A stretch of DNA of 64,000 nucleotides from Giardia intestinalis (taxonomy: Eukaryota), in NCBI GenBank assembly GCA_000002435.2, contig CM018789.1; one strand, written 5' to 3'. The notes under the pieces are model-generated. The model searched no databases. It was not told the origin of the DNA and was given only the letters and a program-made list of their open reading frames with translations. A program made the position numbers and the translations under genes. How positions within the stretch are numbered: the first letter of the stretch is position 1; each line of letters begins with the position of its first letter. This document shows, in pieces, positions 2 through 53,884 of the stretch.

Positions 2-1129
2 TTGGAAGACTCGACCTCTAATAACCCAATCAGCCACTCAGAGATGGACAGACCCAGGAGTCTGCACAGACCAGGAGAAATGGAGGTTCTTAATATCCTT
101 TCAGACCCCGTGCGCTTGAGCGACACGTTGATAATTCGCAATCTTGTGAAAAGGTACAAAGACTTTAAGGCACTGTCAGGAATAGATATGTACATTGGCC
201 CTGGTGAATGTATATGCATTAATGGAATCAATGGGTCCGGCAAATCCACGTTGCTCCACTGTATTGTCCACCTGGAGCAGTACAGTAGCGGAAGGATCTC
301 ATATCCCAAAACTATTGGGTTTGTTTCGCAGTATAATACGTTGTGGGATAATCTTACAGCATCCCAGCATATCAAGCTCATGTTGAGAGCGCGGGGATTA
401 CCTACAACGGCTGCAAACGTCAGTGCTGCACTGGAAGAGGTCGGCTTGGGAGGTGTAGAGAAACGTAAGGTAGGACAGTTCTCCTACGGAATGAAGAGGC
501 GCACTTGTCTCGCCATGGCCCTTGCTGGAAGGCCCTCTCTATTTCTGCTCGACGAGGTTACGTCTGGGGTCGATCCTGGCTCAAAGGAGAAAATTTGGGC
601 AGTCATTCAAAGACAACAGCAACAGAGGTCTGCGGTTGTACTAACGTCGCACTCCATCCGCGAGTGTGAGATCCTGGGCACTCGGATAGTCATAATGGGC
701 GCAGGAAAGGTGGCAGCTGTAGGGTCCTCAAGCGAGCTTAAAAACTCGCATGTATATGGCTATTCGTTAACTGTAGAAGCTGTGCATACGGATGGGATAA
801 CGTCTGAACAAGTCATGCACAATATTCATGCATCCGGGGTCCTTGATGGTGTATCGGACGCCGCTGCAGCCCTTGCGCTGGCAGAGGCCGACTCTGTCCA
901 CGGAAAGCCGAGGGTGGGGAAGATCAAGCTCCGCCAGGTCACGGGCAGGATCGTGATCGTGGAGCTTCCGAAGCTGCCCCTCCCGGCTGTGGCGGCTGTC
1001 TACCGGGGGATAAAGGCGCTGGAGGCAGTCAGATCTGTGGCCCTCCGCTCCCCCAACCTGGAGCCCATATTCACCGAGTACGCCCTCCTCAGCGAGAGGA
1101 AGGATGACGGGTCCCCGGTGTCCCTGTAG
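2..1129 (+). CDS. ABC transporter, C-terminal nucleotide-binding domain (ABCA-like), 5'-partial
   Basis: Walker A GINGSGKSTLL, ABC signature FSYGMKRRTCLAMALAG, Walker B LFLLDEVTSGVD. The ORF runs off the window start. The Ala-rich C-terminal tail lies in the GC-rich island. The gene converges on and overlaps the next gene by 41 nt. Confidence 0.85.
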   Translation: MEDSTSNNPISHSEMDRPRSLHRPGEMEVLNILSDPVRLSDTLIIRNLVKRYKDFKALSGIDMYIGPGECICINGINGSGKSTLLHCIVHLEQYSSGRISYPKTIGFVSQYNTLWDNLTASQHIKLMLRARGLPTTAANVSAALEEVGLGGVEKRKVGQFSYGMKRRTCLAMALAGRPSLFLLDEVTSGVDPGSKEKIWAVIQRQQQQRSAVVLTSHSIRECEILGTRIVIMGAGKVAAVGSSSELKNSHVYGYSLTVEAVHTDGITSEQVMHNIHASGVLDGVSDAAAALALAEADSVHGKPRVGKIKLRQVTGRIVIVELPKLPLPAVAAVYRGIKALEAVRSVALRSPNLEPIFTEYALLSERKDDGSPVSL

Positions 1130-35982: not shown

Positions 35983-38900
35983 TTACACGGAATACAGGTA
36001 TCGTACATCTGCCTTAAATACGTAGTCGAACTGTTGATAGTTCTTCTGTCCATTGTGAGTATACAGGACCCGATTGAAGTCCATCTCGCGGTCAATATAG
36101 ATTTTGATTTTTTTAGGTATGTAGGTCTCTGACAACCCTGCAGCTCTTATGGCGGCGGCTATATCTTCTAGTACAAAGCGTTCAACCGCTTGCGCCAGCG
36201 CTCTGGTGAAATTGGTCGGAGACACGACTGGCAGAAAGACTCTCATTAGATCATCTTCGTCCTTACCGTAGCGTTCGCACAGAAGCCCATCACGCGATGA
36301 GATCTTGCTACTGATGACGGAGGACATCGATTGGACAGACGGAGTAAGGCCCCGCTCAACGACGGCCACTTCTCCCTCTGAATCCAAGGTATCTTCGCAA
36401 CCTTTGATTCCAGAGGTCTCTAACACAACGTCATGGGAGGTGGCTCCCTTGAGCTTAATCTTCTGTTCTCTGTACCGGGCTTCTAGCAAATACTTCTTGC
36501 AGTTGATAATACATACTGTGTAGTTAGTATTGGGATTGGCAAACAGGCAACACGTTATTATGTATGGAATGCTCTCAATGATTCTGTTTGCTAGATCTCT
36601 GTCGAGAATCTGCTTGCCGAGCACAAGGTGTTTGTGGAGCGATCGCAAGTAGACCAGGCGTCCGTCCGGAAGAAGCTTGATTAAGTCCCCAGTATGGAAG
36701 TACCCGTCTGCATCAAAGATGTCATTAGCTTTAAAGAGATCACACTGCTTTTTCTGCGGACAGGAAAATGACCCTTGAAAGAGGGACAGTGAGGTATACC
36801 GCTTTGAGTATGCGTCTAAGAATGTATCAGTGGTGCAAGGTTCGGCATGCACAGGAAGGATATCTGCTGCGCTGGTGGACTCCTTGCCGAGAGGTGCAGG
36901 TACGCTCTTAAGCTCAGGCATTTCATCACTGATTATTGTATCTGGAGAACAAATGCCTTTCAGTACCACATTGAGAGGAACGTCTTGGTCGCAAAGTTCG
37001 TGGGACGTATCTCTAGAGGGCGATGTCGCAAGGGTATTGCTTTTTGGTTTTTCTGATGGCTGACTGGATCGTACAAAGCTCTGGTCCTTGACGCTCAGGG
37101 GAATTCCGCAGGCAGAGCCAGACAGTTTGTTGAGCTTCAGCTCGCTAATGGTTATGCTTTGGCGAACAGACGAGGCAGTTTGCGACATGAGTGGAGGGTT
37201 TAGTCGTAAATCTTCTACACTCATGCTAGAGAACTTAGAGAAGCCCGCAAGCCCTTGTTTATTGACTATGCTTGCAATTCCTAATTGTGCACCAGAAGAC
37301 GTGGGAGTGTCGTCGACAGAGCCAGGTTCTGGCCCAAACAGTGACGGTCTCTTGATAATGTCCTTAGAAATAGCCTGTGTATCTGCTGCGGCCAGAGCTG
37401 AGTTGGGTTCTGGAGACTCTTGGGCATCATTGTTATGGCTCGGCGATTGGGTCGAAGAAGCTACTGTTCTAATGGGCTTCAGCTGGCCGCTGTCATTAGA
37501 ATCTAACCGTGAATTTTCGGCATTAATAGCGTACAGCAAAGCAACGGCTATACTGTGCTGTCTCTCAGCCAGATTGGGGGCCTTGAAGAGACCCATATGC
37601 TCAACCTTTTTCTTTAGAATCTTGACAACACCCAGAGTTGACATCCTGAAGGGACTAGAGCAGAACTTGAACATGTGAGCGATCTTCCGGAAGAGGAGGG
37701 ATCCAGAGTAATTGCCCGCAACAGCCATTTTCCCCTTGAAACAAAGCTCACCAACCCCGTCTCTTTCCAATGAAAACTCACACCTCTCCTTGCAGTCCAT
37801 CACCACGCTGGAAATACCTGGCATGGATCTGCCCAGCAAACCTTCGTAGGACGGCAGGTCATGATAGTATGTGTAGCATCCCAGCCCCAGAAACTCTGAG
37901 ACCCCATAGACAGTTGAAAAGATACCCCCAGTGCCCACCCGAAAGAACTCAATGACCTTGTGCTGTAGCGGGCCGCCGATTGAAATGAAGTGAGTCGTAT
38001 TGCCTCCAAAGGCTTGAGCATTGATAAACCTTAGAGTTGAGGGGAGCTTTAACGTGCTCACCTGTGACTGGTAAAAAAGCGTCTTCAGGGATACCATTAG
38101 GGATTGCGATAGGCGACCATTTGCTTTCAATATTGGAGATAAAAACGCGTTGGCAAGGCGATGATGCTTGGCGATAATCCTTTCCGTGGTCTTGTAATAT
38201 GGTGTTAACCGATGATTTCTAAACGAAGAGAATGTGTCCAGTATCCTTTTGCAATCATCATTAGAGACTCGTTCGGGGACCACGCGGGAGGCCTTTATGA
38301 GCGCCTTTTGCGAGTGAGCAAACACCTTCTGGATCGCAAGCGCATGGGGGTCGTCGCTACTGGTTTGCGGCTTAGTATAATCCGCAGCAGCCAAGTCAAC
38401 GTTTAGATTGACAGTGAGAGGCCCGAAAGGACCAGAGGTCAGCTGATCAACTCCAACCTGATCCAGGAACATCGACTCCTGACAGATGCTGTCCATCTTA
38501 TCTGCACGTCGCTCGAGATCCTTCTCTATGCGGTCGACTTCCTTATTTCCCAGTTCAGTCAGATATGTCAGCCCCGCCTTGTAGATTCGTTGATATATCT
38601 GGCATGTTCCCACAAATAGCGTGCATTGACTGTCTCTCAGATCAAGCATAAATTGTCTGTCGATTCCGGATGAATAGTATATTTGGTAGCCTCTAATGTA
38701 TGCGAGATGCTCAAGAACCCTCTCAAAGGGCATGGAGAGAGGAAGATGGGAGAGAAAGGAGGGCTGGTGGTGGACAAACCCGGATGATTTGATTGACGGA
38801 CTTCCTGGCAGGATAACATCGGCTGTAAAGGCTCTCGTCCCGGATCCTCTGCCAACAAAGATATTGGTCAAATGCTTTGCTGAGTTTCCTGGGCTTTGCT

Positions 38901-40560
38901 TACTTGCTAGGTTTTGTGAGCCAGTCCTAGACTGCCCCTTTTTGTCCCGTTCGTGAGATGAAGAAGGTTGGTGCTTGTTTGCTTGAATAATGTCTGATGT
39001 TTCGGAAGCATCTGCAAAGGGGTTAATGTATGGATCACATGGGGAGCGCATATGCCCAGGAAGGTAGCCCAGTGCAAGTGATGTCATGGCCGAAATAAAC
39101 GCACCATAGGTGACCCCTAGTCCGACAATAGGCGGGGAAGGAGAACTAGACTTCTTATTAGATTTATACAGTATGCTGCAGATATCAGTGGCGCCGGCGC
39201 GCACGTCGTTCTGAGCAGTGTATTTAATGTGCTTCGTCTTCTGCATCAGGACATCTAGCGATATGATGTTCAGAGGCGTCTCGTCTTCTAGAAGATGCTT
39301 AAGTCCTGCCTGAGCTCCATTTAAGTTAGGGGTGTGCGCGGGGTCGTCGCTCTCGGGCTTATCGGAACAAGTTACCGCTGAGCTCTGCACTACAGCTGGT
39401 TCAGAATCTAGCAAACAATTTTCAATAGAGTTTGCATCCGATATGTGTGCACGCAGATACGATGAGATATCTATAAGATTCTTGTCGACAGTGTGTTCTA
39501 GGGTTCGTCGGTCGTGTTTGGTCGACGTTTGATTTAAGATGGCTGGAAAGGGTGCCATGCAAGCACTGAGCTTTCCGTTAGCAAAGCACGTAAAGACCCG
39601 TCCGTCACGTAAGTAGTAGGACCCAAGCCTATCCTCAAGGTGTGCCTGTGTCGAGACCTTACTGTTGCGAATTTCGTTTAGATATGATATACCGTCAATA
39701 GATAAGATATTAGAACTGGGGCTGGCAGGCGGATCCTCCAACTTGTCAACAACAGCAGAGGCCTCTTGGCAAGGGAGGGGAGAATTCCCTGTCCGCATCC
39801 CTTGTAACGGAGATGCTAGTGCGTGCGCGGAGGGAGATCCATCCGCAGAATTGAAAAACTCATCGTAGATCATCTGGTCTATGACGGACGTTGTGAGGAG
39901 TTCTTGTTCCAAGGTACCAAACACCATGGACGCAGCGTTGATCAAATTAGGGCTATCGGGAAGCGTATCCAACGATAATACAAGGCGGAGGTTGTCGCAG
40001 CGATGGGCAACGCCAAGAACCCGACTCACATACTGCTTCTGAGTTATGATGAGCTTCATTCCCGAGTGGAGGATGATGTATGCAAGCTTCTCATGGTTGC
40101 TCGTGGTTGGAACGGGAACAGTGACGGCGCCACGCGCCATAATGGCAAGATCTGAGATGAGCCAAAGGGGAGAGTTGGCTGCCATGAGCCCAACCATGTC
40201 TCCGCTCCTAATCCCCAGATACTGAAAGGCGGCAGTGACATGGTTGACCATGCGCTCTGCCTTAGCATAGGAAAGGTTGGTAAAGGGGGAAGGCGCGCTG
40301 ACAGCCTGTGTGCTCTCTTGACAAGTGTTGTCCCTGGGCCTTTCAGGAAGTGTTGTTGCTAGTCCATTACGAAAAAACATAAATGGGAGGTCAGAAAAGC
40401 GCGAGCACGCATCCCTGAACATCTCTATGAGGGATTGCTGCATTTTGGGTAAATAGCCTGCAGAGACGTGTGCATGCGATGCAGAGAGTAGATTGGCTGA
40501 TTGTGTGGCAAGATACTTTCTATTGCTGTTTGGAGTATATGATACAGTTAACATAAACAA
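35983..40560 (-). CDS. giant long-chain acyl-CoA synthetase-like (AMP-binding family) protein, paralog of the gene at 15109-20820
   Basis: The N-terminal region is homologous to the gene at 15109-20820. Motif II YFHTGDLIKLLPDGRLVYLRS and a VYGVSE-like motif III are present. The first ATG is at 40554. The stop is embedded in TGTAAAC. Confidence 0.7.
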   Translation of the reverse strand: MFMLTVSYTPNSNRKYLATQSANLLSASHAHVSAGYLPKMQQSLIEMFRDACSRFSDLPFMFFRNGLATTLPERPRDNTCQESTQAVSAPSPFTNLSYAKAERMVNHVTAAFQYLGIRSGDMVGLMAANSPLWLISDLAIMARGAVTVPVPTTSNHEKLAYIILHSGMKLIITQKQYVSRVLGVAHRCDNLRLVLSLDTLPDSPNLINAASMVFGTLEQELLTTSVIDQMIYDEFFNSADGSPSAHALASPLQGMRTGNSPLPCQEASAVVDKLEDPPASPSSNILSIDGISYLNEIRNSKVSTQAHLEDRLGSYYLRDGRVFTCFANGKLSACMAPFPAILNQTSTKHDRRTLEHTVDKNLIDISSYLRAHISDANSIENCLLDSEPAVVQSSAVTCSDKPESDDPAHTPNLNGAQAGLKHLLEDETPLNIISLDVLMQKTKHIKYTAQNDVRAGATDICSILYKSNKKSSSPSPPIVGLGVTYGAFISAMTSLALGYLPGHMRSPCDPYINPFADASETSDIIQANKHQPSSSHERDKKGQSRTGSQNLASKQSPGNSAKHLTNIFVGRGSGTRAFTADVILPGSPSIKSSGFVHHQPSFLSHLPLSMPFERVLEHLAYIRGYQIYYSSGIDRQFMLDLRDSQCTLFVGTCQIYQRIYKAGLTYLTELGNKEVDRIEKDLERRADKMDSICQESMFLDQVGVDQLTSGPFGPLTVNLNVDLAAADYTKPQTSSDDPHALAIQKVFAHSQKALIKASRVVPERVSNDDCKRILDTFSSFRNHRLTPYYKTTERIIAKHHRLANAFLSPILKANGRLSQSLMVSLKTLFYQSQVSTLKLPSTLRFINAQAFGGNTTHFISIGGPLQHKVIEFFRVGTGGIFSTVYGVSEFLGLGCYTYYHDLPSYEGLLGRSMPGISSVVMDCKERCEFSLERDGVGELCFKGKMAVAGNYSGSLLFRKIAHMFKFCSSPFRMSTLGVVKILKKKVEHMGLFKAPNLAERQHSIAVALLYAINAENSRLDSNDSGQLKPIRTVASSTQSPSHNNDAQESPEPNSALAAADTQAISKDIIKRPSLFGPEPGSVDDTPTSSGAQLGIASIVNKQGLAGFSKFSSMSVEDLRLNPPLMSQTASSVRQSITISELKLNKLSGSACGIPLSVKDQSFVRSSQPSEKPKSNTLATSPSRDTSHELCDQDVPLNVVLKGICSPDTIISDEMPELKSVPAPLGKESTSAADILPVHAEPCTTDTFLDAYSKRYTSLSLFQGSFSCPQKKQCDLFKANDIFDADGYFHTGDLIKLLPDGRLVYLRSLHKHLVLGKQILDRDLANRIIESIPYIITCCLFANPNTNYTVCIINCKKYLLEARYREQKIKLKGATSHDVVLETSGIKGCEDTLDSEGEVAVVERGLTPSVQSMSSVISSKISSRDGLLCERYGKDEDDLMRVFLPVVSPTNFTRALAQAVERFVLEDIAAAIRAAGLSETYIPKKIKIYIDREMDFNRVLYTHNGQKNYQQFDYVFKADVRYLYSV

Positions 40561-40596: not shown

Positions 40597-42981
40597 CTAC
40601 TTGCTGGCACTATCAAGGATGGACGCCGCAGCCTCTTGTTCTGCAACCTGTGCCACTTGAAGTGCAGTCTTGCCGGCGTTGTTCCGTAGGTCTTGCTCAG
40701 AGAGCAGGAGGCGGACGCAGGAGATGTTGTTCTTTGATGCAGCCCACATAAGAGCACACCATCCATTCCAGTCTCGAAGCGTGGTCTCATGCTCCGACAG
40801 TAACTTCACCCCCATAATATAGTCCATTTCGGCTGCACGCATAAGGGCTGTCAGTCCCTCCTTTGTCTGGATCCCGGCCTCTCGCTCTACAAGGAGAGAA
40901 GCGCAGTCGATATTCCTATTGTTGATGGCCATCATTAAGGCCGTGCCACAACTTTGGGAAACGAACCCTGGCAGCAAGCATCCTGCTTGGTCTAGATATT
41001 GGGCCACCAGATCAGGCCTATTTTGCTCGGCAGCCTCCATAAGCTGTGTTTTGTGCTCTACAACGCAGCTTGGTCTGCGAGGTGAGAGAGTTAAAGAGGC
41101 GCCGTGGGTCTTAGCATACGTTAAGACTGCCTTACGGTAAACGGTGTTCCCTGTCCGCGAGAGGTAGTCCAGGATATTGGTCCCATCCGATGCCAAAACC
41201 ATCCAAGTCTCATCTATGAGCAGATCGAAGACCCTACGGTTAGCAGTTTTAGCAGCAACCATCAGAGGGGTTAGTCCGTCCGCTGTGTGCCCTTTCCCTT
41301 CATGCGGAAGCAGAATCTTGACCATATTAACATCTTCCGCTCTCATAGCCTTGATTATAGCCATCTCTCCTCGCTCGTCATGTTGCTTGCATTCATGTGG
41401 AGCTAGTAGTTCAACTGCGTCTGCGTTGCTTTCCAGAACAGCGTACATAAGCGCAGTACGTCCGTGAATATCAGACCTTCGTGCCTGAAAAAGAAGGGTA
41501 TTGATTGCGGTCGTAAATCCAGTGATTGCTGCTAACATAAGCGCAGTCTTCCCGGACTCGGAAGAAGAAGGCTCACAGCTAGCAGCTGCGTCAGCGAGCT
41601 CAGCTAGGAAAGTTTCCTCCCTTTTGTGGACAGCCCACATGAGGACTGTTTCGCCTCCTGTCTCGGGGATCTTAGCATTCGTTTCCTCGAGCGCCAGTAT
41701 GCGTACACATTCGGCGCGATTATGACTGATGGCATACATAAGTGCACAATGGTTATCAGAACTGAAAACCCCTGTTTCTTGTGCTCCTGATTGGGAACCT
41801 GCTACTATCAAATAAGAAACAACGTTAGCACGGCCCGCCATGGCTGCATACATGAGTGCGGTCATTCCCTTCTCGTCCCGCAACTGGAGCTCGTGTGAAG
41901 CTAGAAGCTTGACGGCCTCCAGATGACCTCGCTCAGCAGCGAGCATAAGAGCAGTTCTACCATGCTTATTCTGAGATCTAGCGAAGCCAATGTGCAAGGA
42001 GACGGCACTTGTATCATTGAGCGCGGCGGCCTGCATCAGATCAGTGTCTCCATCAGTATACTCGTAAGGCTGGACTGGTGCAGCCAAGTGCGCTGTTGTT
42101 TTAAGATGGACCAGGCTTGATATCTTCTCTAGATGCTCACGCTTTTTGGTATCGTGCTCCAGACAACCTGACACTATTCTTATTAGCTGGCCGGAGAATC
42201 CTCTTTCAGATAGTAGCTTTGGTAGGTTGATAGCACCATCTGTTGTATACATCGAGCTCATAGCGGGCTTCATTGTCATGATCTTCAAGACCAAGGTTCC
42301 GATGTTCCACACAAGTCTTTCATCAAGGGAAGAACACGATATATGATTTGCTACCGGGGAGGGTACGTGGAACGGAAGTGAAAAATTATATTGCTCATGG
42401 TTGAGTAGAAGGTCCGACAAAGAATGGATTTGATAATCCATGTACTCACAAACAAGAACAGAAAGGGGTTTCCCCGGGTTCTCCCGTTCTAGGAGAAGGA
42501 CGTTATCAGGTGTGAAGAAAAGGGGCTCGTTCAAAGCACCCAATTTGCGGAGAGAATCAATGGCCGTCACAATTCCAGCTAAGATCTCCCAGACCTCAGA
42601 TTCGGAGAAGCTTGATCCCGTTGATCTGCGGCGAGATATTTCATCCGCTAGACTTCGGCCATGCTGCACCTCCTGGTAAATGAAGCCCTCCCGACCGTAC
42701 GATACTACGCTTCCGTGCAGAGCGAGACAACTGCCCGGCAGTTTAGGCAAACGAGCGCCTATGTCTGCAAGCCTTTCAAGGTTCATGACCAAACGTCCGC
42801 GGGCCTCTAATGAAAGCTCAGCTACATCGTACTCCAGTATGTTAACGGGGCTTCCTGTCTTCAGTGAGACCGCAGAGTAGAGTCTACGGGTAATGACCTC
42901 TGGACCGTGGATCTGTACTCCCTGTAATTCACTACTAAGCTGAACGTTAGTATACTTTTCCGCGATGACACCCAGGTGCAT
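40597..42981 (-). CDS. ankyrin-repeat protein with N-terminal degenerate NEK-like kinase domain (Giardia 'protein 21.1'-like)
   Basis: The N-terminal roughly 200 aa is kinase-like but lacks a Gly-loop and HRD, followed by at least 10 ankyrin repeats (G.TALM.AA..GH...V..L). The ATG context is TTTCAATTTTAAAATG. AGTAAAT lies 9 nt after the stop. Confidence 0.75.
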   Translation of the reverse strand: MHLGVIAEKYTNVQLSSELQGVQIHGPEVITRRLYSAVSLKTGSPVNILEYDVAELSLEARGRLVMNLERLADIGARLPKLPGSCLALHGSVVSYGREGFIYQEVQHGRSLADEISRRRSTGSSFSESEVWEILAGIVTAIDSLRKLGALNEPLFFTPDNVLLLERENPGKPLSVLVCEYMDYQIHSLSDLLLNHEQYNFSLPFHVPSPVANHISCSSLDERLVWNIGTLVLKIMTMKPAMSSMYTTDGAINLPKLLSERGFSGQLIRIVSGCLEHDTKKREHLEKISSLVHLKTTAHLAAPVQPYEYTDGDTDLMQAAALNDTSAVSLHIGFARSQNKHGRTALMLAAERGHLEAVKLLASHELQLRDEKGMTALMYAAMAGRANVVSYLIVAGSQSGAQETGVFSSDNHCALMYAISHNRAECVRILALEETNAKIPETGGETVLMWAVHKREETFLAELADAAASCEPSSSESGKTALMLAAITGFTTAINTLLFQARRSDIHGRTALMYAVLESNADAVELLAPHECKQHDERGEMAIIKAMRAEDVNMVKILLPHEGKGHTADGLTPLMVAAKTANRRVFDLLIDETWMVLASDGTNILDYLSRTGNTVYRKAVLTYAKTHGASLTLSPRRPSCVVEHKTQLMEAAEQNRPDLVAQYLDQAGCLLPGFVSQSCGTALMMAINNRNIDCASLLVEREAGIQTKEGLTALMRAAEMDYIMGVKLLSEHETTLRDWNGWCALMWAASKNNISCVRLLLSEQDLRNNAGKTALQVAQVAEQEAAASILDSASK

Positions 42982-43043
42982 TTTAAAATTGAAACGATAA
43001 CGGTGTGCAGTGTTGACATACCACCGGTAGCTTTGCCGTACCG

Positions 43044-43436
43044 TTAGACCGGCGGGGCTTGCTGAGGCTCGATTGTCCTCCTTGGCTCGGAGCGGCCACC
43101 GTCATCGGGACTGTCTTTGGCATGAATCACCAACAGTGCTCCAAAAACAATGCTCCAGATCCACGGAACAAATAGCCACATGAGAAAGAACTGGATTGCA
43201 GCAATGATAAGTAGGTTACAGCGGTTTCTGTGGGCAGAACTCAGACATGCTGAAAGTGCTGTCCCTAGCCCCGAGACTATTATGTTGCAGATGAGAAGCA
43301 GCACGGCGACGCAGATGGTGGTCCTTGGGGTGTGTCCTTGGAAGATGTATGTCCAGAGGGGAATCTGCTCATCGTCGAGGGACTTGGCGGGGGCTCCCTC
43401 GGCAGGCGGGTGTTGCGTAGGTTGCGCGTCAGGCAT
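43044..43436 (-). CDS. small multi-pass membrane protein (130 aa)
   Basis: Two to three hydrophobic helices (ICVAVLLLICNIIVSGLGTALSA, LLIIAAIQFFLMWLFVPWIWSIVFGALLVI). Clear paralog of the ORF at 48206-48733. The ATG context is GGAGAATAAAAATG. Confidence 0.65.
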   Translation of the reverse strand: MPDAQPTQHPPAEGAPAKSLDDEQIPLWTYIFQGHTPRTTICVAVLLLICNIIVSGLGTALSACLSSAHRNRCNLLIIAAIQFFLMWLFVPWIWSIVFGALLVIHAKDSPDDGGRSEPRRTIEPQQAPPV

Positions 43437-43509
43437 TTTTATTCTCCATGGTACAAAGCTTCGAGGGATGCGAATTGTCTGAAGGCGGGTTTATCTACCT
43501 TAGTAATCT

Positions 43510-46500
43510 TTAGTTCTTTGTAAAAATAAATGACGGGGTCAAGGGACGAAGCGAAGAAGGCCTCTGGGCCTCCCTGATTACCAGAGAGGCAGATACACCG
43601 GGGAGAGAGGGAGAAGGAGTGTGTATAGACATCCTGTTTGTGTGGATCAATGACGTGGATGCACTTCGTCTATTTGAAAGTTTTATTCCAACGCTACCAG
43701 TGGCCAGCTCTTCTCTGATATTGCTTCTCCCAATGGATATATCTATATGTTGTGATAATACCGCCATAATCTTTGCGTCCTGTATGGCTGAGACGAACTC
43801 CTTTGTCAGCAGCCGACTTTCCCTTGCAGCCAGAAGCGATATTGATTTAATATCACGACGATCCAGTGCAAATGCCAATGCACAATCGCCATCTAAGTTT
43901 AGACGCCCGGCTTCATCACATAAAAGCGCTGCGCTTGTGGACTGAGAGTGCTTTGTTGCCCACATGAGAGCAGTATTTCCACTGCGATCAGACATTCCTT
44001 TCTGCGTCGAATAGTAGAGGCTTGCAAGGGGCAGGTTTCCCATTCCCGCGGCAACCATGAGGGGCGTCAGTCCGTTCTTATCGCAAATAGTCGTACTGAC
44101 GCCTGCTGTTTGCTGCACCAGTATTCTGCATATGTCCTCACGCTGTGTGCAAGTGGCGATGAGCAACGGGCTTGGAAAGTCAAATGCCCAGATCCCGCTG
44201 CTCCATTTTCCGACAAACGATATGGAGTGCTCAAGAGGAGCCAGCATAGCAACCATGTTAACAATTCCCTTTTCGATGGCAATGATCAGTGCTGTCCTGC
44301 CCGTGGGATCTGTGGCTCCGGCCTCGTGAAGAAGCTCCTCTGCCAATGCTTGGTCGTTATTCATCACAGCCTTGTGCAATTCTGTTACTCCACTTTCGGA
44401 CCTTATCGCCGGTTTTATCAGTGACGCGATTTCGGAAAGTCCCAGCTCTGTTGCCAGTTTCCAAGGCAGAGTCTCTCCAACAGTTATGCTAGCCTCTATC
44501 CGGAGCAACTTAATTACGTCTATATCTCCCAGCTTTATGGCGAGTGTTAGAGCGGAATACATTCCACGGTAGACAGCTTGGCAGAAACAGATGTTTTCCT
44601 TGACCAGCTCCAAGTCTTTGTTCACAACAGCAGCCATCAAGGGCGTGAAGCCTCTACGTGATATTCTTTCCAACTCTTCCTTGCAGCATAGTAAAGCTGC
44701 TGCAGCTCTATATTCGTCTTTATCCAGAGCATAGTCTGTTGCTACCAGGCCTGCTAAATCCTGCAATCCGCCCTCTGTGTCCATTAGCAAGTTAATCGCA
44801 TCTATGTTTCCTGCTGCTGCAGCCAGCATTAGGGCCGTTTGGCCTTGAGCATTTCTTCTGCGCGCAAGGTGCATGCACATTCGCATACCTTCCAGGTTGC
44901 CATTGATGGCCTCGACGTGCAGCTGTGTGTGTCCGTCTTCGTCTTCGAACGCTGGGTGAAGGACGTATTGCTTGAGTAGGATAGTGGCCTCTTCTAATTG
45001 CTCAGCTGCCTTTATAAATCTTGACGGGTTAGGGTGTCTATGAATGAGCTGTCTGATAAGCTCGGTGTTTTTGTCCGCACTTACTTTGGAGGGACGAAGG
45101 AGTGCTTTGAAAAGCGCTAAGTCACCGTCCCAGTCGCTAGCCATAGATGGCTCTAGAAGTGCTAAGCTCAGGAGTCCATTTGAATAACAGGGAAACTCAT
45201 GCCGCAAAGTTAGGGTAGCCCCCTCGAGAAAATCGTTGTCCAAAGCAATGTCGGTTGCTAGTTCTCCTGCAGAACTGACAAGGCAAGACTCGAGCGGAGC
45301 AAGGACTGCAACAATGTGCTTGTATTTATATTTCATAGCATACATCAGTGCGGTCCAGCCTGTATAATCCTGTTGACGGGCCTCTAAAAGGAATTTAATC
45401 GCTCCACTTATATCGCCTGAGATGGTGGCAATCATTAGATTAGTATATCCACAGGAAAGAAGAGCCTTTGTCTCAAATGGAGAGATAAGCCGGAACGTCT
45501 CAAGGTGGCCTTCTTTCAAAGCAAGCATCGAGGCGCAACATCCATACTTTTCAGTATTCTCAGTGCTTACAATCCCCCCTTCTAGTGTCAGCAAATCTTG
45601 GTCAATATCATTGAGTCCAAAGCTTGCCGCCAGCATCAGTGCAGTGTGACCATCATTGTTCTTCACTCCGTGGCAATGTAAAACCGCGAGAAGGTCGGCT
45701 CTTTTCCGAGTCATGCTACCATTTTGTGCACAGAATCGTATATATGTATGCAGTGGAGTCTCTCCCTTGGAGTCAACGTCGTACGTCGGTCGCAAGATCA
45801 TGCAAAGATCGGGGCTCTGCACCTTGTACGCCAAATACCATGCAGTCACCCCATCTTCTGTGATGAGATCCCGCTCCATCAGCAGAAGCTTGACACAGTC
45901 TTCGTCCCCAGTATTGACCGCATACATTAGGGCAGTCCACCCCTTGCTGTCGCGAGCGTTAGCTTGGTTGATATAAAGCCATACCAACCCGGGGCGTTTT
46001 TCGGCGGCAGCAATCATCAACTGCGTCATATCAGGGGGATACTTCTCTGCATTGGGAACAGCCAACTCATATTCAGCAATAGCCTCTGCAATATTGAGGG
46101 ACCCACTTAGGACAGCAAAATCAATTGCACTGAGACAACGGTTTCCTGTGGTGACTGCGAGTCCAGCCTCTAGTGATGCTAGTAGCACCGCACACTCCAG
46201 ACTTCCGTGCATCGATGCGTGCATCAAGGCCGTGAATCCATCATTATCCACCAGGCCTACTTGTCCTAGGTGGCAGAACACCATAAAAGGATCGCCGTTC
46301 AATGCCCCGATCATCAGGTTAGTCCTTCCACACTTGTCCGGCGGTGATGTAACTACGTGCTCAGGGAGCAGAAGGTGCTTTGCCAGCTCAAGATTTCCCA
46401 TGTGGAACGCTATCTCAGCAGCAGAAATGCCTGGAGCAAGGAGTCGGGACGGGATATCCTTGGAACTGCTTGGCGTTAACTTCTCTGCAGGAGCCCCAGA

Positions 46501-48195
46501 GAGAACGCTTTTTTCATACTCTAACAGCAGCAGAGCCATCTCCTCTCGTCCATGAAGGCAGCTCTGATGAAGCGCCGTGTGTCCATTATGGTCTCTTTCT
46601 CCGGCCTCGTAGTTTCTGAGGAGGCAAACAATTTCTTTGTGTTTGAGTGCAGCTGCAAGCATAAGGGCGGTATAATCGTCATTATTTTTCTTTCTGGCCA
46701 GGGAGAGGAACAACCTAGTGCCCACTGTGTCGCCTCCCATGACAGCGCGGTGCAGCTGAGTGTTTCCATCAGAATCCACGACGGGGCTCTGCTCTAGGAC
46801 GGTGAGAGCATCCATAAAGCCACTGTCTCGAGCCAGCTGCCACGGGGTGATACCAGAAGAAATGCAAATATCTTTTTCTGTCGAGAGAAGCTTAACACAG
46901 GTAAGGCTTTTGGAGGCTATTGCATACGCCAAGGCAGTGTTGCCAAGTGTGTCTACCCGTCCAGCTTGCCCTAAGTTTAGGTAGACACCAATAATGTCGT
47001 TATTACGCACGCTCTCAACTAGCGTGTCAGGAGCCTTGGGGATATCTCCGCTGTACGATAACAGTAGACGAATGATAGAGTTCGGATAGGTGCGTGATAT
47101 TCCAATAGATACTGGCAGTTCTCCGGCTGCATTTTTGACAGCTCCCTCTTGTGGAGCGAGTATCCTTATAATTTGTGCTAGTACGAACTCCTCAAAGGCA
47201 GCATATGAGCAAGAGGAGTCAGTCCCAGGCTTCGGGGTTTGAAACGTCGATCTCATCATTGCATAATGGAGCGCAGTATTTCCTGTAATCGAATGTACCT
47301 CTCCACACTCAAACGGGGCCAGAATTCTTACTACAGCAAGAGAAAGCCTCTTAGCCGCCATCATCAAGGCCGTGTTGCCGGTCTCATTGGTGCTTTTAGC
47401 AAACACTGCACCCAGTTCCTGTACCACAGCGAGATTATCCGTTTCAACAGCTCTGAAGAAGTCAGCCTGGGTAGATGATATGGAACATATGCTCTGCGTG
47501 TGTGGGTTCTCGTCCATGGAAGAAAACTCAGCCACAAGCCTATCTTGAAATGTGCTAAGGGACTGGTTATTAGTATACATTAGTAAGCACTGAATTAAGC
47601 TTGCTATACGCGAGCTGCATGACAGTCTACTACTGAGGTCAGAGGCTGCCAATTCAGCGCTCAGACATGGATATTCTCCAGCGTACGATCTATAAATCGC
47701 TGCACCAAGTCCACGGACAGCAGGCACGACGGAGGATAAATTGTGGTCCTCCTCTGGCACCAAGAGGAGTTCAATGTCTCCAAGAAATGGGATTTCCCCT
47801 GCCCTGTAGAAGACATTACTGCATTGAATCGTGGATAAATAAAGCCCAGCCGATGACAAACGCTCAATGGCTAGCAGAATAGAAAACGCCACGTTGGCTA
47901 CATCCAAGTCTGAGATCAAATTCTTTAGGACACCGCCCGAATGACATATGTTTTCGAGCGTGAGATGGTCACTTTCCAGTGCATAGAGTCTGATCACGTC
48001 TCCTTGAAACACGATCTTTCGTAACTTTAAAACATCACATTCCAGCGTGTTTCGTGCTGCGTTGAGTCGATCGAGGGCGCGTCTCAGGATGGGACTGACT
48101 TGAGCTTCTTGGTGAGCTGCTGCCGCGTTTTCTTTTGGGGGCGCCAACTCTTCTGATTTGCTCATTAAATCCTGATTTTCAGTTTGTGTTCGCAT
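43510..48195 (-). CDS. ankyrin-repeat protein (1561 aa) with N-terminal degenerate kinase-like domain (protein 21.1/NEK-like)
   Basis: More than 25 ankyrin repeats (GNTALMMAAKRLSLAVVRILAP, GHTALHQSCLHGREEMALLLLE, and others). The N-terminal roughly 250 aa lacks catalytic kinase motifs. The start ATG lies inside the AGTAAATG signal of the upstream gene. Confidence 0.8.
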   Translation of the reverse strand: MRTQTENQDLMSKSEELAPPKENAAAAHQEAQVSPILRRALDRLNAARNTLECDVLKLRKIVFQGDVIRLYALESDHLTLENICHSGGVLKNLISDLDVANVAFSILLAIERLSSAGLYLSTIQCSNVFYRAGEIPFLGDIELLLVPEEDHNLSSVVPAVRGLGAAIYRSYAGEYPCLSAELAASDLSSRLSCSSRIASLIQCLLMYTNNQSLSTFQDRLVAEFSSMDENPHTQSICSISSTQADFFRAVETDNLAVVQELGAVFAKSTNETGNTALMMAAKRLSLAVVRILAPFECGEVHSITGNTALHYAMMRSTFQTPKPGTDSSCSYAAFEEFVLAQIIRILAPQEGAVKNAAGELPVSIGISRTYPNSIIRLLLSYSGDIPKAPDTLVESVRNNDIIGVYLNLGQAGRVDTLGNTALAYAIASKSLTCVKLLSTEKDICISSGITPWQLARDSGFMDALTVLEQSPVVDSDGNTQLHRAVMGGDTVGTRLFLSLARKKNNDDYTALMLAAALKHKEIVCLLRNYEAGERDHNGHTALHQSCLHGREEMALLLLEYEKSVLSGAPAEKLTPSSSKDIPSRLLAPGISAAEIAFHMGNLELAKHLLLPEHVVTSPPDKCGRTNLMIGALNGDPFMVFCHLGQVGLVDNDGFTALMHASMHGSLECAVLLASLEAGLAVTTGNRCLSAIDFAVLSGSLNIAEAIAEYELAVPNAEKYPPDMTQLMIAAAEKRPGLVWLYINQANARDSKGWTALMYAVNTGDEDCVKLLLMERDLITEDGVTAWYLAYKVQSPDLCMILRPTYDVDSKGETPLHTYIRFCAQNGSMTRKRADLLAVLHCHGVKNNDGHTALMLAASFGLNDIDQDLLTLEGGIVSTENTEKYGCCASMLALKEGHLETFRLISPFETKALLSCGYTNLMIATISGDISGAIKFLLEARQQDYTGWTALMYAMKYKYKHIVAVLAPLESCLVSSAGELATDIALDNDFLEGATLTLRHEFPCYSNGLLSLALLEPSMASDWDGDLALFKALLRPSKVSADKNTELIRQLIHRHPNPSRFIKAAEQLEEATILLKQYVLHPAFEDEDGHTQLHVEAINGNLEGMRMCMHLARRRNAQGQTALMLAAAAGNIDAINLLMDTEGGLQDLAGLVATDYALDKDEYRAAAALLCCKEELERISRRGFTPLMAAVVNKDLELVKENICFCQAVYRGMYSALTLAIKLGDIDVIKLLRIEASITVGETLPWKLATELGLSEIASLIKPAIRSESGVTELHKAVMNNDQALAEELLHEAGATDPTGRTALIIAIEKGIVNMVAMLAPLEHSISFVGKWSSGIWAFDFPSPLLIATCTQREDICRILVQQTAGVSTTICDKNGLTPLMVAAGMGNLPLASLYYSTQKGMSDRSGNTALMWATKHSQSTSAALLCDEAGRLNLDGDCALAFALDRRDIKSISLLAARESRLLTKEFVSAIQDAKIMAVLSQHIDISIGRSNIREELATGSVGIKLSNRRSASTSLIHTNRMSIHTPSPSLPGVSASLVIREAQRPSSLRPLTPSFIFTKN

Positions 48196-48200
48196 TTACT
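48194..48200 (-). promoter_or_regulatory. AGTAAAT polyadenylation signal overlapping the ATG of the downstream gene
   Basis: The minus strand reads TAG TCTAG AGTAAATG CGA. TAG is the stop of the membrane-protein gene at 48206-48733. The ATG at 48195-48193 starts the 1561-aa ankyrin gene. Confidence 0.5.
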
Positions 48201-48205
48201 CTAGA

Positions 48206-48733
48206 CTAGTACATTGGAACTGGGAATTGGTGGATCGAGCGAACGTGGTGGCCGTCTGAATCGGGGGAATTTGTTGTGCTCTGCGTGGAGGGAGTGTCCG
48301 GTGTGGGTAGATCGCCCGATGCCCTCATAGCCGCAAGCCGTCGAAGCTGGTCTTCTACCTGGTGCATCTTGGAGTGTGATATTAGCTGTGCACCATAAAA
48401 TAGGGCCCAGCAATAGGGGAAGATAAGGGGTGCGCCAAAGAACTGTAGAAGGCCTATGGAGAGTATTGTCCGTCGGTTGGCCTTGGCCGACGGGGCTATC
48501 GCCGAAAACATCGTCCCAATCCCTGGGAGCACTATGTTGCAGAATAGGATCGTCACAGCTGCGCCAATGGGAAGAACCGGGGTTGCTCCCGCTTTGACAT
48601 ATGAGACAAAGGACATGGGCTCGCACTCCTTGCACAGGGGCCCTTTTGTTACTGGCTTATCATGTGCAAGAGATATCGTTTCGTCGCTCAGACACACAGG
48701 AGAGCTCATTTTTGTTCTAGAGGTACTAACCAA
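48206..48733 (-). CDS. small multi-pass membrane protein, paralog of 43044-43436
   Basis: CNIVLPGIGTMFSAI and IGLLQFFGAPLIFPYCWALFYGAQLI align with the paralog. The likely ATG is at 48709 (CTAGAACAAAAAATG). Its stop lies 10 nt from the start of the next gene. Confidence 0.65.
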   Translation of the reverse strand: MVSTSRTKMSSPVCLSDETISLAHDKPVTKGPLCKECEPMSFVSYVKAGATPVLPIGAAVTILFCNIVLPGIGTMFSAIAPSAKANRRTILSIGLLQFFGAPLIFPYCWALFYGAQLISHSKMHQVEDQLRRLAAMRASGDLPTPDTPSTQSTTNSPDSDGHHVRSIHQFPVPMY

Positions 48734-48847
48734 CTAATGATTTGTGAATGGCTTGTTAGTAGAGCTAGTATCTTCACAGCTCACACCCAGAAAGCATGCC
48801 AGCTTTTGCCATACTTGTCAAGTTCCTTTCAGCCCATTTAGCGCACG

Positions 48848-49870
48848 GTGCACGCGCTGAAAAAAATGTTCTTCGATATTCTCTTTGTAAATACAAGCAC
48901 AGGGATACTTCAGTATCACCACCGAGTCAACACGTTCTTTACTGATTCCCCAATGAAGCCCCATAGTCTGTGCATGATTCTCAGGTCTATAACCCAAGCA
49001 TCCATGGAAGTCTTTAAGCAAGCTCTTCTGTACATGGAGCTCAGCTCTGCCGCCATATCGATTTATGATGCCCAGCCAATTACCTGCATTGTTATTCATG
49101 AAATCTTCGACAGAGATTGCTACGGCTCCATACTCTCTGAGGCGTTTGTCAGTCTCTATAAGAACGTAATACAGAATTCGTTTACGCGGACGCAGCATAT
49201 GAACCCCCCGATAGCCCAATCGCATGTCACTTCAAAATTATTAGAATATATGCAGTTAGCCCTCTCGATTGTCCTGGACAGAATTTGCTGCATGAAGTAT
49301 ACTGCGTCGTGCTATGTTATGATTCTTGACCACCCTTATTCTCCCGTCTTTCCGCCTGGAATGATCATGGGGAGGACTAAGCACCTTCCTCCCAGGCCAA
49401 ACTTCGCTGAACTGAACTCGAAAGCAATAGAAACCAATATCAGCAACCTCATTGATCAAATTAACGAAGCGCTAGAGGTCATCTTTGCCTCGTCGGACGG
49501 TGGATCCGTAGCAGATAACCCTAACAATAAGCTCAGCTCCCGTCTTTCTACCTTCGAATTATGCTACGACATGTCCTTCCGGATTCGCGTCACTAACGTT
49601 TTCCCCGGTGCATACGTTGTGCTCATGCAGAATAAGCGAACGCGGCAATACAGTTCTCTGCACCAGGACAATGCAACAATGTCTATCATGACTCAGGAAT
49701 CTGCGCTAGAGCTATCTGCGCAGGCATCAACCCTCACTGCAACCCCCTTTCACGGGAAGTCCGGCACCGCTAAGTTCGAGAAAAACAAGTTCATGGTGAG
49801 CCAGTTGACGCATGCTATCGCCCGCATCTTTGACAGCGCACATCAGATACGGCAACGGAATAGCACCTAG
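48848..49870 (+). CDS. hypothetical protein
   Basis: ORF whose likely ATG at 48866 has the context CTGAAAAAAATG (about 335 aa). No domain recognised. Its first 360 nt are antisense to an alternative 135-aa ORF (see findings). Confidence 0.5.
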   Translation: MHALKKMFFDILFVNTSTGILQYHHRVNTFFTDSPMKPHSLCMILRSITQASMEVFKQALLYMELSSAAISIYDAQPITCIVIHEIFDRDCYGSILSEAFVSLYKNVIQNSFTRTQHMNPPIAQSHVTSKLLEYMQLALSIVLDRICCMKYTASCYVMILDHPYSPVFPPGMIMGRTKHLPPRPNFAELNSKAIETNISNLIDQINEALEVIFASSDGGSVADNPNNKLSSRLSTFELCYDMSFRIRVTNVFPGAYVVLMQNKRTRQYSSLHQDNATMSIMTQESALELSAQASTLTATPFHGKSGTAKFEKNKFMVSQLTHAIARIFDSAHQIRQRNST

Positions 49871-52978: not shown

Positions 52979-53884
52979 ATGGAACCCACCGTTAAGAAAT
53001 GCACCTCTTGCACTTGCGAACCCGTCTCTGCGCCTGCGCATGAGCAACAGAAGCTTTTGGAAAACACATCTGCACCCTCAGCCTCTGCTACATTTAAGGC
53101 AGTTTCCAAGCGCCTTGTTAGAAACGTAGGCAGAGCCATCTCCACCTACAAACTTATTGAACAGGGCGATCGTGTTGCACTGGCCCTCTCGGGAGGAAAG
53201 GACAGCTGGACACTTCTCCACGTCCTCCTTGATATAGCAAAACGCTCCCCAGTTAAGTTCACTGTTATCCCTGTGACGGTGGAGACAGGATATCCAGGGT
53301 TTGAAGCCAATGTCGCAAAGCTCACGAAGTACATTGAGGAGAACCTCGGCATAAAGCACGTGGTCATAAAGGAGACCTTCCCGGAGATAATCGACGGGAA
53401 CTTACGCCAAGGAACAAGCAACTGCTCGTTCTGCGCCCGCTTACGAAGAGGAACCCTCTACACGCATTGCCAAAAACTGGGGATTAATAAGCTCGCCCTA
53501 GGTCACCATAGGGAGGACGTTAACGAGTCACTTTTGATGTCTCTTTTCTTCAACGGAAAACTCTGGACGCAAGGCCCGATAATTCATAACTCAGAGAAGA
53601 ACGTTACGCTAATTCGCCCCATGGTATTCTGCGCAGAAGAGGACACTATTGCATATGCGCGCCATAGTACGTTTCCAATAGTTACATGCAACTGTCCCCA
53701 CGAGGGAAACAAAGAACATCGGCGGTACAAGATCAAGCAGACGATTCTTACCATGCGCCAGTGGATTCCAGATATCCAGCGCAGCATCTTGACGGGGGCC
53801 ACAGAGCTATTCCAATTCATGCAATATACAGACAAGGGCAAGGAGCGAAATAACAGAGCAGAGGACGATGGTGAGCTAATGTAA
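52979..53884 (+). CDS. cytoplasmic tRNA 2-thiolation protein 1 (Ncs6/Ctu1/TtcA-family PP-loop ATPase)
   Basis: PP-loop SGGKDS, Cys motifs CSFCARLRRG and CNCPHEG, and conserved LALGHHREDV. The ATG context is GAAAAATAAATG. The stop is embedded in TGTAAAC. Confidence 0.85.
   Translation: MEPTVKKCTSCTCEPVSAPAHEQQKLLENTSAPSASATFKAVSKRLVRNVGRAISTYKLIEQGDRVALALSGGKDSWTLLHVLLDIAKRSPVKFTVIPVTVETGYPGFEANVAKLTKYIEENLGIKHVVIKETFPEIIDGNLRQGTSNCSFCARLRRGTLYTHCQKLGINKLALGHHREDVNESLLMSLFFNGKLWTQGPIIHNSEKNVTLIRPMVFCAEEDTIAYARHSTFPIVTCNCPHEGNKEHRRYKIKQTILTMRQWIPDIQRSILTGATELFQFMQYTDKGKERNNRAEDDGELM

What the first reader, a model, noticed from the sequence alone, without database searches (positions are those of the whole stretch)
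40597..48733. Tandem duplication of a two-gene cassette: small membrane protein plus ankyrin/pseudokinase protein
On the minus strand the order is:
- membrane protein 48733←48206
- 1561-aa ankyrin protein 48195←43510
- membrane protein 43436←43044
- 794-aa ankyrin protein 42981←40597

The two small proteins are clear paralogs (CNIIVSGLGTALSA versus CNIVLPGIGTMFSAI; AAIQFFLMWLFVPWIWSIVFGALLV versus IGLLQFFGAPLIFPYCWALFYGAQLI). Both large proteins have a degenerate kinase-like N-terminal domain followed by ankyrin arrays. The pairs sit 10-74 bp apart.

A conserved adjacency of a small polytopic membrane protein with a 21.1/NEK-like ankyrin protein suggests a functional pairing, for example membrane anchoring of the ankyrin scaffold. 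Given the spacing, it also suggests co-regulation.
Basis: seen in the sequence. Interest (0 to 1): 0.55.

Follow-up and report, generated by a model that had tools for sequence, protein, structure and literature searches.

The report
Duplicated Spec3 genes beside ankyrin genes
Two related small membrane-protein genes in Giardia each sit just upstream of a large ankyrin-repeat gene, but all four genes are already annotated and the layout looks like an old local duplication in a genome crowded with ankyrin genes, not a functional unit.

Summary
The four minus-strand ORFs are real genes under purifying selection in Giardia intestinalis WB. [quoted passage not shown]

The small proteins are true paralogs (40% identity, E 4e-20). 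Both pass the Pfam Spec3/Stum threshold and have two hydrophobic segments.

The large proteins share only generic TALM-ankyrin similarity. Their N-terminal domains resemble neither each other nor kinases by sequence. Weak fold-level hits and the literature fit cryptic Nek-type pseudokinase remnants.

The order Spec3–ARP–Spec3–ARP is conserved across the G. duodenalis complex. A more distant Giardia-like relative has a single Spec3 gene at the syntenic site and no ankyrin neighbour. None of 15 other Spec3-like loci has one either.

About 10% of Giardia genes carry ankyrin repeats. Gaps of 40–73 bp lie below the genome median of 81 bp. Each gene has its own AT-rich start context, and three of the four have a poly(A)-like signal after the stop.

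Verdict: an old, lineage-specific local duplication. I found no evidence for a functional module or co-regulation. Ordinary, low interest.

The parts
48206..48709 (-). Spec3B: 167-aa Spec3/Stum-family membrane protein (XP_001707849, annotated 'Spec3 membrane protein').
   Evidence: Exact match to the annotated protein. Pfam PF15795 32.6 bits against a cut-off of 27. Two hydrophobic segments. dN/dS 0.13 against L003.
43510..48165 (-). Large TALM-ankyrin protein (XP_001707850; 'Protein 21.1', now 'Ankyrin repeat protein 1'). 1551 aa by the current model; the old 1561-aa model starts at 48195.
   Evidence: Ortholog starts support M11. Ank_2 E 5e-95 with 16 stretches. Eight exact TALM motifs. dN/dS 0.08.
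47416..48165 (-). N-terminal non-ankyrin domain of the 1551-aa protein. Fast-evolving orphan domain, possibly a kinase C-lobe-like remnant.
43747..47415 (-). Ankyrin-repeat array of the 1551-aa protein.
43044..43436 (-). Spec3A: 130-aa Spec3/Stum-family membrane protein (XP_001707851; its DHA2 ortholog is DHA2_7374).
   Evidence: Exact match. Pfam PF15795 30.1 bits against 27. Two hydrophobic segments. dN/dS 0.045. 51% identical to the single Spec3 of the distant relative L004.
40597..42981 (-). 794-aa TALM-ankyrin protein (XP_001707852, UniProt A8BC91, 'Ankyrin repeat protein 1').
   Evidence: Ank_2 E 1e-67. Six exact TALM motifs. dN/dS 0.09.
42043..42807 (-). Residues 59-313 of the 794-aa protein: putative degenerate kinase-like region.
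   Evidence: PMC12538575 reports an InterPro kinase-superfamily hit at 59-313 and excluded it for lack of an N-lobe. The ortholog profile gives only E~1 hits, all to the MKK7 C-lobe. The AF2 model was unusable at pLDDT 37.
40600..42066 (-). Ankyrin-repeat array of the 794-aa protein.
48866..49870 (+). Context, not part of the cassette: a conserved gene of about 335 aa lying head-to-head with Spec3B. It serves as the synteny anchor.
   Evidence: Homologous over its full length to the L004 gene that lies head-to-head with that organism's only Spec3 gene (E 3e-30).

Best explanation
This is an old local duplication specific to the Giardia duodenalis lineage. It is not a functional two-gene module. 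The locus holds two paralogous genes for small two-segment membrane proteins of the Spec3/Stum family. Each is followed on the same strand by a member of Giardia's very large Protein 21.1 / ARP-1 family (TALM-type ankyrin arrays behind a fast-evolving N-terminal domain).

Shown: the Spec3 genes are paralogs; all four genes are conserved and under purifying selection; the gene order is fixed across G. duodenalis assemblages.

Inferred:
- The unit Spec3+ARP was probably duplicated as a block. This may have occurred by unequal recombination involving ankyrin-repeat genes, which flank duplications and rearrangements in Giardia genomes.
- The ARP N-domains have since diverged beyond recognition.
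- The N-domains are probably cryptic Nek-derived pseudokinase remnants, as proposed for many 21.1 proteins.
- The genes are transcribed separately, from their own short AT-rich initiators.
- The Spec3 proteins probably act as small integral membrane proteins of the trophozoite, independently of their neighbours.
For: - Identity and annotation: exact matches to G. intestinalis WB proteins named 'Spec3 membrane protein' and 'Protein 21.1 / Ankyrin repeat protein 1'.
- Spec3 paralogy: E 4e-20, and both pass the Pfam gathering score.
- Same gene order in a second assemblage-A isolate (consecutive accessions ESU38759-62), in divergent lineages L001-L003 at 69-84% amino-acid identity, and in L020/L021.
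- dN/dS is 0.05-0.13 for all four genes.
- The syntenic locus in the distant relative L004 has one Spec3 gene and no ankyrin gene.
- G. muris has a Spec3 gene (GMRT_12189) three gene numbers from a tRNA(Ile)-lysidine synthase gene, matching the PP-loop gene at window 52979-53884. It is strongly expressed in trophozoites: FPKM 2211, against 52 in cysts.
- No ankyrin repeats lie near 15 other Spec3-like loci.
- Background figures: 489 of 4,963 genes carry ankyrin repeats (PMC7000408; gene total from PMC7641422). The median intergenic distance is 81 bp, and duplications are 'frequently associated' with ARP/NEK genes (PMC7641422).
- Rate argument, from identities. Spec3 cores are 76-88% identical between orthologs and 42% between paralogs. 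The ARP N-domains are already only 53-61% identical between the same orthologs. Scaled the same way, co-duplicated N-domains would now be about 7% identical, which is undetectable. That matches what is seen.
- The pseudokinase reading is supported. [quoted passage not shown]
Against: - No sequence evidence ties the two ARPs to each other more closely than to any other Giardia ARP. I could not obtain other Giardia ARPs as comparators.
- A neighbour-joining tree groups the L004 Spec3 with the A copy in 488 of 500 bootstraps. Taken at face value, the duplication predates that split, and the L004 lineage then lost a copy and any ARPs. The ancestral state of the adjacency is therefore unresolved. 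The B copy evolves about twice as fast and the outgroup is bacterial, so long-branch attraction is possible.
- Conservation of the order within G. duodenalis is simply inherited synteny. It says nothing for or against function.
- The kinase-fold evidence rests on a low-confidence model (pLDDT 52).
Confidence: 0.7

Rival explanations
1. Functional module. Each Spec3 membrane protein recruits or anchors the ankyrin/pseudokinase protein encoded next to it, and the pair was retained and duplicated because the two products work together. An example would be a membrane-cytoskeleton link at the flagellar or plasma membrane.
For: - Two pairs in the same order and orientation, both retained under purifying selection across G. 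duodenalis lineages.
- They are the only ankyrin genes in the 64-kb window.
- Ankyrin arrays are protein-interaction scaffolds. Deleting an ankyrin repeat in one Giardia Nek shifted it towards the plasma membrane (PMC3218828).
Against: - The adjacency is absent at the syntenic locus of the distant relative L004 and from 15 other Spec3-like loci.
- A single founding adjacency has a chance probability of about 0.1.
- The ARP N-domains evolve fast (53-61% identity between lineages in which the Spec3 cores are 76-88% identical).
- The 794-aa ortholog has a premature stop in one lineage while Spec3A stays intact.
- Spacing is ordinary and each gene has its own start context.
- No paper links Spec3 and Giardia.
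Confidence: 0.08
2. Only the Spec3 gene was duplicated, or the two copies are much older than the present arrangement. The two ankyrin genes then arrived next to them independently, through the high turnover of the ARP/Nek family. On this view the look of a two-gene cassette is coincidental.
For: - The N-domains of the two ARPs share nothing detectable. The ARPs also differ two-fold in length, and there is no DNA similarity between the two halves.
- The ARP/Nek families are the most dynamic in Giardia genomes, and synteny breaks at them.
- The Spec3 tree suggests the A/B split is older than the L004 divergence, yet L004 has no ARP at the locus.
Against: - Two independent arrivals at the same relative position and strand have a probability of about 0.01 or less at 10% ankyrin-gene density.
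- The lack of N-domain similarity is expected even after co-duplication, given the measured rates.
Confidence: 0.2
3. The small ORFs are not genes but chance ORFs between large genes.
For: They are short (130 and 167 aa). No G. intestinalis expression data could be retrieved here.
Against: - Pfam Spec3 hits above the gathering score.
- dN/dS of 0.045 and 0.13 with saturated synonymous sites.
- Orthologs in all lineages examined and in a distant relative.
- The G. muris ortholog is highly expressed.
Confidence: 0.01

Closest known systems
Spec3/Stum family (Pfam PF15795; sea-urchin SPEC3, Drosophila Stum, human STUM)
   Same: - An ~85-residue domain with two hydrophobic segments.
- Both proteins score above the Pfam gathering threshold.
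- Conserved N-[ILV]3-[PS]-G-x-G-T and Q-F...W motifs, shared with a bacterial homolog and the L004 homolog.
   Different: - The Giardia proteins are minimal (130-167 aa), consisting of the domain plus short tails.
- Two tandem paralogs are present.
- From my own knowledge: SPEC3 is linked to ectodermal ciliogenesis and Stum to proprioceptive mechanosensing. Neither function has been tested in Giardia, and no paper links Spec3 to Giardia.
Giardia Protein 21.1 / ARP-1 and Nek (pseudo)kinase-ankyrin family (Manning et al. 2011, PMC3218828; Xu et al. 2020, PMC7000408)
   Same: - An N-terminal non-repeat domain followed by long TALM-type ankyrin arrays (6 and 8 exact TALM motifs).
- No other Pfam domain.
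- Annotated exactly so in the reference genome.
- Fast evolution and lineage-specific disruption.
   Different: - Neither protein is classed as a Nek. No kinase domain is detectable by sequence.
- A8BC91 was explicitly excluded from the 2025 kinome for lack of an N-lobe.
Segmental duplications and rearrangements flanked by ARP/NEK genes in Giardia genomes (Xu et al. 2020, PMC7641422)
   Same: A duplicated segment whose boundaries are ankyrin-repeat genes. That paper states that duplications occurred between ARPs and NEKs and that rearrangements are frequently associated with these families.
   Different: Here the duplication is old. No DNA similarity remains, and it is fixed across G. duodenalis assemblages rather than being recent or strain-specific.

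Membership tests
Spec3/Stum (PF15795) | Match to the family HMM above the curated gathering score | tested here: met
   30.1 bits (130-aa protein) and 32.6 bits (167-aa protein) against a cut-off of 27. The match covers nearly the whole 85-position model.
Spec3/Stum (PF15795) | Two hydrophobic membrane segments within the domain | tested here: met
   A Kyte-Doolittle scan finds two segments in each protein (A: about 36-66 and 72-107; B: about 41-72 and 82-100). No dedicated topology predictor was available, so orientation is unresolved.
Spec3/Stum (PF15795) | Conserved motifs shared with distant members | tested here: met
   N, G-x-G-T, Q-F and W columns are invariant across the A copy, the B copy, the L004 homolog and a bacterial homolog.
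Spec3/Stum (PF15795) | Ciliary or mechanosensory role | not testable with these tools
   The only available data are that the G. muris ortholog is trophozoite-enriched.
Giardia Protein 21.1 / ARP-1 | Ankyrin repeats and no other Pfam-detectable domain (definition in PMC7000408) | tested here: met
   Only Ank-clan families hit at E<=1 in both large proteins. Definition quoted. Reference annotation as 'Ankyrin repeat protein 1'.
Giardia Protein 21.1 / ARP-1 | TALM-type ankyrin repeats | tested here: met
   6 and 8 exact TALM motifs, and 11 TALM-like motifs in each protein. Motif described in PMC3218828.
Giardia Nek kinase / non-core pseudokinase | Protein-kinase domain detectable by a sequence profile | tested here: not met
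   No Pkinase family at E<=1. No PDB sequence hit. The only hits are E~1 matches to the MKK7 C-lobe for the 794-aa protein's profile. Exhaustive phmmer with the 1561-aa N-domain finds only its ortholog. The literature reports an InterPro superfamily hit for A8BC91.
Giardia Nek kinase / non-core pseudokinase | Bilobal kinase fold | tested here: inconclusive
Giardia Nek kinase / non-core pseudokinase | Catalytic Lys/Asp/Asp triad | tested here: inconclusive
   By eye, the catalytic-loop-like stretches (LFFTPDNVLL and LSTIQCSNVFY) keep the Asn but lack the HRD Asp. No significant alignment to a kinase underpins this assignment.
Co-transcribed or co-regulated gene pair | Spacing or signals that differ from ordinary Giardia neighbours | tested here: not met
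   Gaps are 40, 73 and 62 bp, against a genome median of 81 bp and 1-62 bp for other neighbours in the window. Each ATG is preceded by its own AT-rich stretch. Three of the four stops (Spec3B and both ARPs) are followed by AGTAAA/AGATAAAC-like signals; none was seen after Spec3A. Expression data were not available.
Conserved gene neighbourhood (module) | Adjacency recurs at independent loci or in distant lineages | tested here: not met
   Found only at this locus in the G. duodenalis complex. Absent at the syntenic L004 locus and at 15 other Spec3-like loci. The G. muris neighbour GMRT_12188 could not be read.

The most novel reading that the evidence does not exclude
The Spec3 proteins and their neighbouring ankyrin/pseudokinase proteins form a membrane-to-cytoskeleton coupling pair specific to G. 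duodenalis. An example would be a flagellar or ventral-disc membrane complex in which a Stum-like membrane protein is tethered by an ankyrin array, loosely analogous to ankyrin-tethered mechanosensory complexes. The pair would have been duplicated and sub-functionalised as a unit.
Probability: 0.06. Interest if true: 0.5.

Novelty: already known. Interest (0 to 1): 0.14.

Why it matters
It matters little as it stands. All four genes are already in the reference annotation under the family names recovered here. The arrangement is what a compact genome with about 10% ankyrin-repeat genes and frequent ARP/Nek-flanked duplications is expected to produce.

Three points have modest value:
- Giardia carries two tandem copies of a Spec3/Stum-family membrane protein. 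The G. muris ortholog is strongly trophozoite-enriched, and no paper found here discusses the family in Giardia. Given the family's ciliary and mechanosensory associations in animals, it is a reasonable candidate for localisation in a flagellate.
- The locus is a clean example of how fast ARP N-terminal domains erode relative to their neighbours.
- One ARP is interrupted by a stop codon in one lineage.

Tried and rejected
Two-sequence alignments gave an unusable model for the 794-aa N-domain (pLDDT 37) and a weak one for the 1561-aa N-domain (pLDDT 52).
- The afdb50 fold library was unavailable. It would have shown which Giardia Nek/ARP models are closest.
- A homolog search with the 794-aa N-domain returned only one orthologous fragment, so no deep alignment could be built.
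- hhalign between the two N-domain profiles was non-significant.
- blastn between the two halves of the locus found nothing.
- A tblastn HSP that seemed to run past the 794-aa gene's stop codon was not reproduced and was dropped.
- Literature searches returned nothing for Spec3 plus Giardia, for GL50803_7374, or for the read-run accessions. A search on protein accessions returned one paper, the kinome reannotation.
- G. intestinalis expression and localisation data could not be reached because the gene IDs of three of the four genes are unknown to me and supplements are not globally searchable.
- The G. muris supplementary tables are truncated, so GMRT_12188 and a possible second Spec3 gene could not be read.
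- Rfam found nothing in 40-50 kb.
- I considered fetching other Giardia ARPs from beyond the window ends as comparators. I dropped this because the start codons of the end genes are ambiguous and the look-up needs exact proteins.


Full report
**What is there.**
- a 167-aa ORF (ATG at 48709; a TTG extension reaches 48733);
- a 1561-aa ORF;
- a 130-aa ORF;
- a 794-aa ORF.

All four are exact matches to proteins of Giardia intestinalis WB (ATCC 50803). The small ones are XP_001707849 and XP_001707851, both named 'Spec3 membrane protein'. The large ones are XP_001707850 ('Protein 21.1', now 'Ankyrin repeat protein 1', current model 1551 aa) and XP_001707852 / A8BC91 ('Ankyrin repeat protein 1'). 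The window is therefore Giardia and the genes are already annotated. Orthologs of the largest protein begin at the position of its eleventh codon. This supports the 1551-aa model and makes the gap after the upstream small gene 40 bp rather than 10. The other gaps are 73 and 62 bp.

**The small proteins.**
- They align over 85 residues at 40% identity (E 4e-20).
- Both exceed the Pfam gathering score for PF15795, the Spec3/Stum family (30.1 and 32.6 bits against 27).
- Each has two hydrophobic segments, so 'polytopic' overstates it.
- Against divergent Giardia lineages they show dN/dS of 0.045 and 0.13 with saturated synonymous sites. They are real genes.
- The G. muris paper lists a 'Spec3 membrane protein' (GMRT_12189) at FPKM 2211 in trophozoites, 52 in cysts and 87 in excyzoites (PMC7641422 supplement).
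- No paper in the library mentions Spec3 together with Giardia.

**The large proteins.**
- Both have long ankyrin arrays of the Giardia-specific TALM type, with 6 and 8 exact TALM motifs (motif described in PMC3218828).
- They resemble each other only through these repeats, at 25-28% identity in several alternative registers of similar score.
- Their N-terminal domains are not similar to each other (BLASTP E 1.8; profile-profile probability 0.4%).
- Neither N-domain is a recognisable kinase by sequence. There was no Pkinase hit at E<=1 and no PDB sequence hit. An exhaustive phmmer search of 1.84 billion representatives with the 1561-aa protein's first 260 residues found only its own ortholog, at 53% identity.

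**Is there a kinase-like domain?** Weak evidence points consistently towards a degenerate kinase fold:
- The ortholog profile of the 794-aa N-domain gives twelve E~1 hits, all to the C-lobe of MKK7 at the expected position.
- With Foldseek, nearly all of the top 50 are kinases, including NEK7 and the RNase L pseudokinase, but none is below E 0.02.
- A 2025 kinome re-annotation found an InterPro kinase-superfamily match at residues 59-313 of A8BC91, then excluded it because the model lacks an N-lobe (PMC12538575).

It is not demonstrable here, and neither protein qualifies as a Nek.

**Conservation of the arrangement.** The order Spec3B-ARP-Spec3A-ARP is present in:
- a second assemblage-A isolate (consecutive accessions ESU38759-62);
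- three contigs from clearly divergent G. duodenalis-complex lineages, L001-L003, at 69-84% protein identity;
- two metagenome contigs, L020 and L021, probably assemblage B.

Locus tags in P15 (GLP15_5153 and GLP15_5155) are compatible with the same order. This is inherited synteny within one species complex.

**The informative comparison is L004.** This is a 54.7-kb contig from an unidentified organism (GC 54%).
- Its single Spec3 gene (P0040) lies head-to-head with a 325-aa gene that is homologous over its full length to the window gene lying head-to-head with Spec3B (E 3e-30).
- A further neighbour matches the window's 1023-aa gene (E 7e-10).
- At this syntenic site there is one Spec3 gene. 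Its downstream neighbour is a convergent 1910-aa gene with no ankyrin repeats and no Pfam hit.

G. muris also looks syntenic. GMRT_12189 (Spec3) lies three gene numbers from a tRNA(Ile)-lysidine synthase gene, which matches the PP-loop gene at window 52979-53884. Its other neighbour could not be read from the truncated supplement.

A scan of JGI metagenome contigs found 13 more Spec3-like loci, and two bacterial loci came from the protein search. None has ankyrin repeats nearby.

**When did the duplication happen?** The L004 protein sits in the B-copy position but is closer to the A copy: 51% identity (E 2e-38) against 38% (E 2e-19). A neighbour-joining analysis of 76 ungapped columns with a bacterial outgroup groups it with the A copy in 488 of 500 bootstraps.

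Taken at face value, the A/B split predates the divergence from the L004 lineage, which later lost a copy. Unequal crossing-over between tandem copies would do that. However, the B copy evolves about twice as fast as A within G. duodenalis (76-80% against 88% core identity), and the outgroup is very remote. Long-branch attraction is therefore a live alternative, and I leave the date open.

**Were the ankyrin genes duplicated with the Spec3 genes?** Sequence cannot answer this.
- Between the same pair of lineages, the Spec3 cores are 76-88% identical while the ARP N-domains are only 53-61% identical.
- Scaling the paralog distance of the Spec3 cores (42% identity) by that rate ratio predicts about 7% identity for co-duplicated N-domains. 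That is background level.
- The observed absence of similarity is therefore expected either way.
- Position favours block duplication. With 489 of 4,963 genes carrying ankyrin repeats (PMC7000408; PMC7641422), two independent arrivals immediately downstream have a probability near 0.01, whereas a single founding adjacency has about 0.1.
- The G. muris paper reports that duplications occurred between ARPs and NEKs and that rearrangements are frequently associated with these families. This offers a mechanism, namely unequal recombination involving ankyrin-repeat genes. That step is inference.

**Functional pairing and co-regulation.** Nothing found here supports either.
- The founding adjacency is not improbable.
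- It does not recur outside this locus.
- Gaps of 40-73 bp are at or below the genome median of 81 bp. Other neighbours in this window are 1-62 bp apart or overlap.
- Every gene has its own AT-rich stretch at the ATG. Spec3B and both ARPs have an AGTAAA/AGATAAAC-like element just after the stop, as expected for separately transcribed Giardia genes. The assignment of these elements rests on my own knowledge of Giardia signals.
- In L020/L021 the ortholog of the 794-aa protein has an in-frame TAG at codon 204, inside the putative kinase-like domain. The rest of the 794-codon frame is open, and the adjacent Spec3A gene is intact. The same 203-aa product occurs in an NCBI record. The two contigs differ at only 3 of 2,382 positions in this gene, so they are not independent and selection on the two pieces could not be tested.

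**Verdict.** The duplication is real for the Spec3 genes and plausible for the pair. The components are known families and already annotated, so novelty is nil and interest is low. The most useful lead is that Giardia's Spec3/Stum homologs appear uncharacterised despite high trophozoite expression of the G. muris ortholog.

Noticed in passing
L020:10001-12382 and L021:10001-12382 (orthologs of window 40597-42981): The ortholog of the 794-aa ankyrin protein carries an in-frame TAG at codon 204, inside the putative kinase-like domain. The remaining ~590 codons stay open, and gene callers split it into 203-aa and 558-aa products. The same 203-aa product is in an NCBI record (P0047). This could be a recent pseudogene, a split gene or read-through.
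   Followed up: partly
window 1089-2543 (-), within the GC-rich stretch 1-2000: A 484-aa ORF matches Pfam PF16062 (MavL-like ADP-ribosylhydrolase) at E 4e-138. It sits in a stretch with GC 0.59, against 0.45-0.51 in the rest of the window. This could be a gene of bacterial origin. The C-terminal part of an ABC transporter lies at 2-1129 (+).
   Followed up: no
L004:8647-10456 versus window 48206-49870: Positional and sequence orthology disagree. The single Spec3 gene of the distant relative sits next to the conserved ~335-aa gene, as Spec3B does in the window. Yet it is 51% identical to Spec3A and only 38% identical to Spec3B, and it groups with the A copy in 488 of 500 NJ bootstraps.
   Followed up: partly
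window 48165-48195: The 1561-aa ORF's first ATG (48195) is probably not the start. Orthologs in three divergent lineages begin at the equivalent of M11 (48165), matching the current 1551-aa RefSeq model.
   Followed up: yes
window 35983-40560 (-) and 15109-20820 (+): Two very large proteins (1525 and 1903 aa) each contain an AMP-binding (acyl-CoA-synthetase-type) domain that Pfam matches only in pieces. This suggests long lineage-specific insertions.
   Followed up: no
L007-L010 (JGI metagenome contigs, GC 24-30%): Spec3-like ORFs 38-39% identical to Giardia Spec3A over residues 32-126 occur on very AT-rich contigs of unknown origin. They could be other protists. No ankyrin repeats lie nearby.
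   Followed up: no
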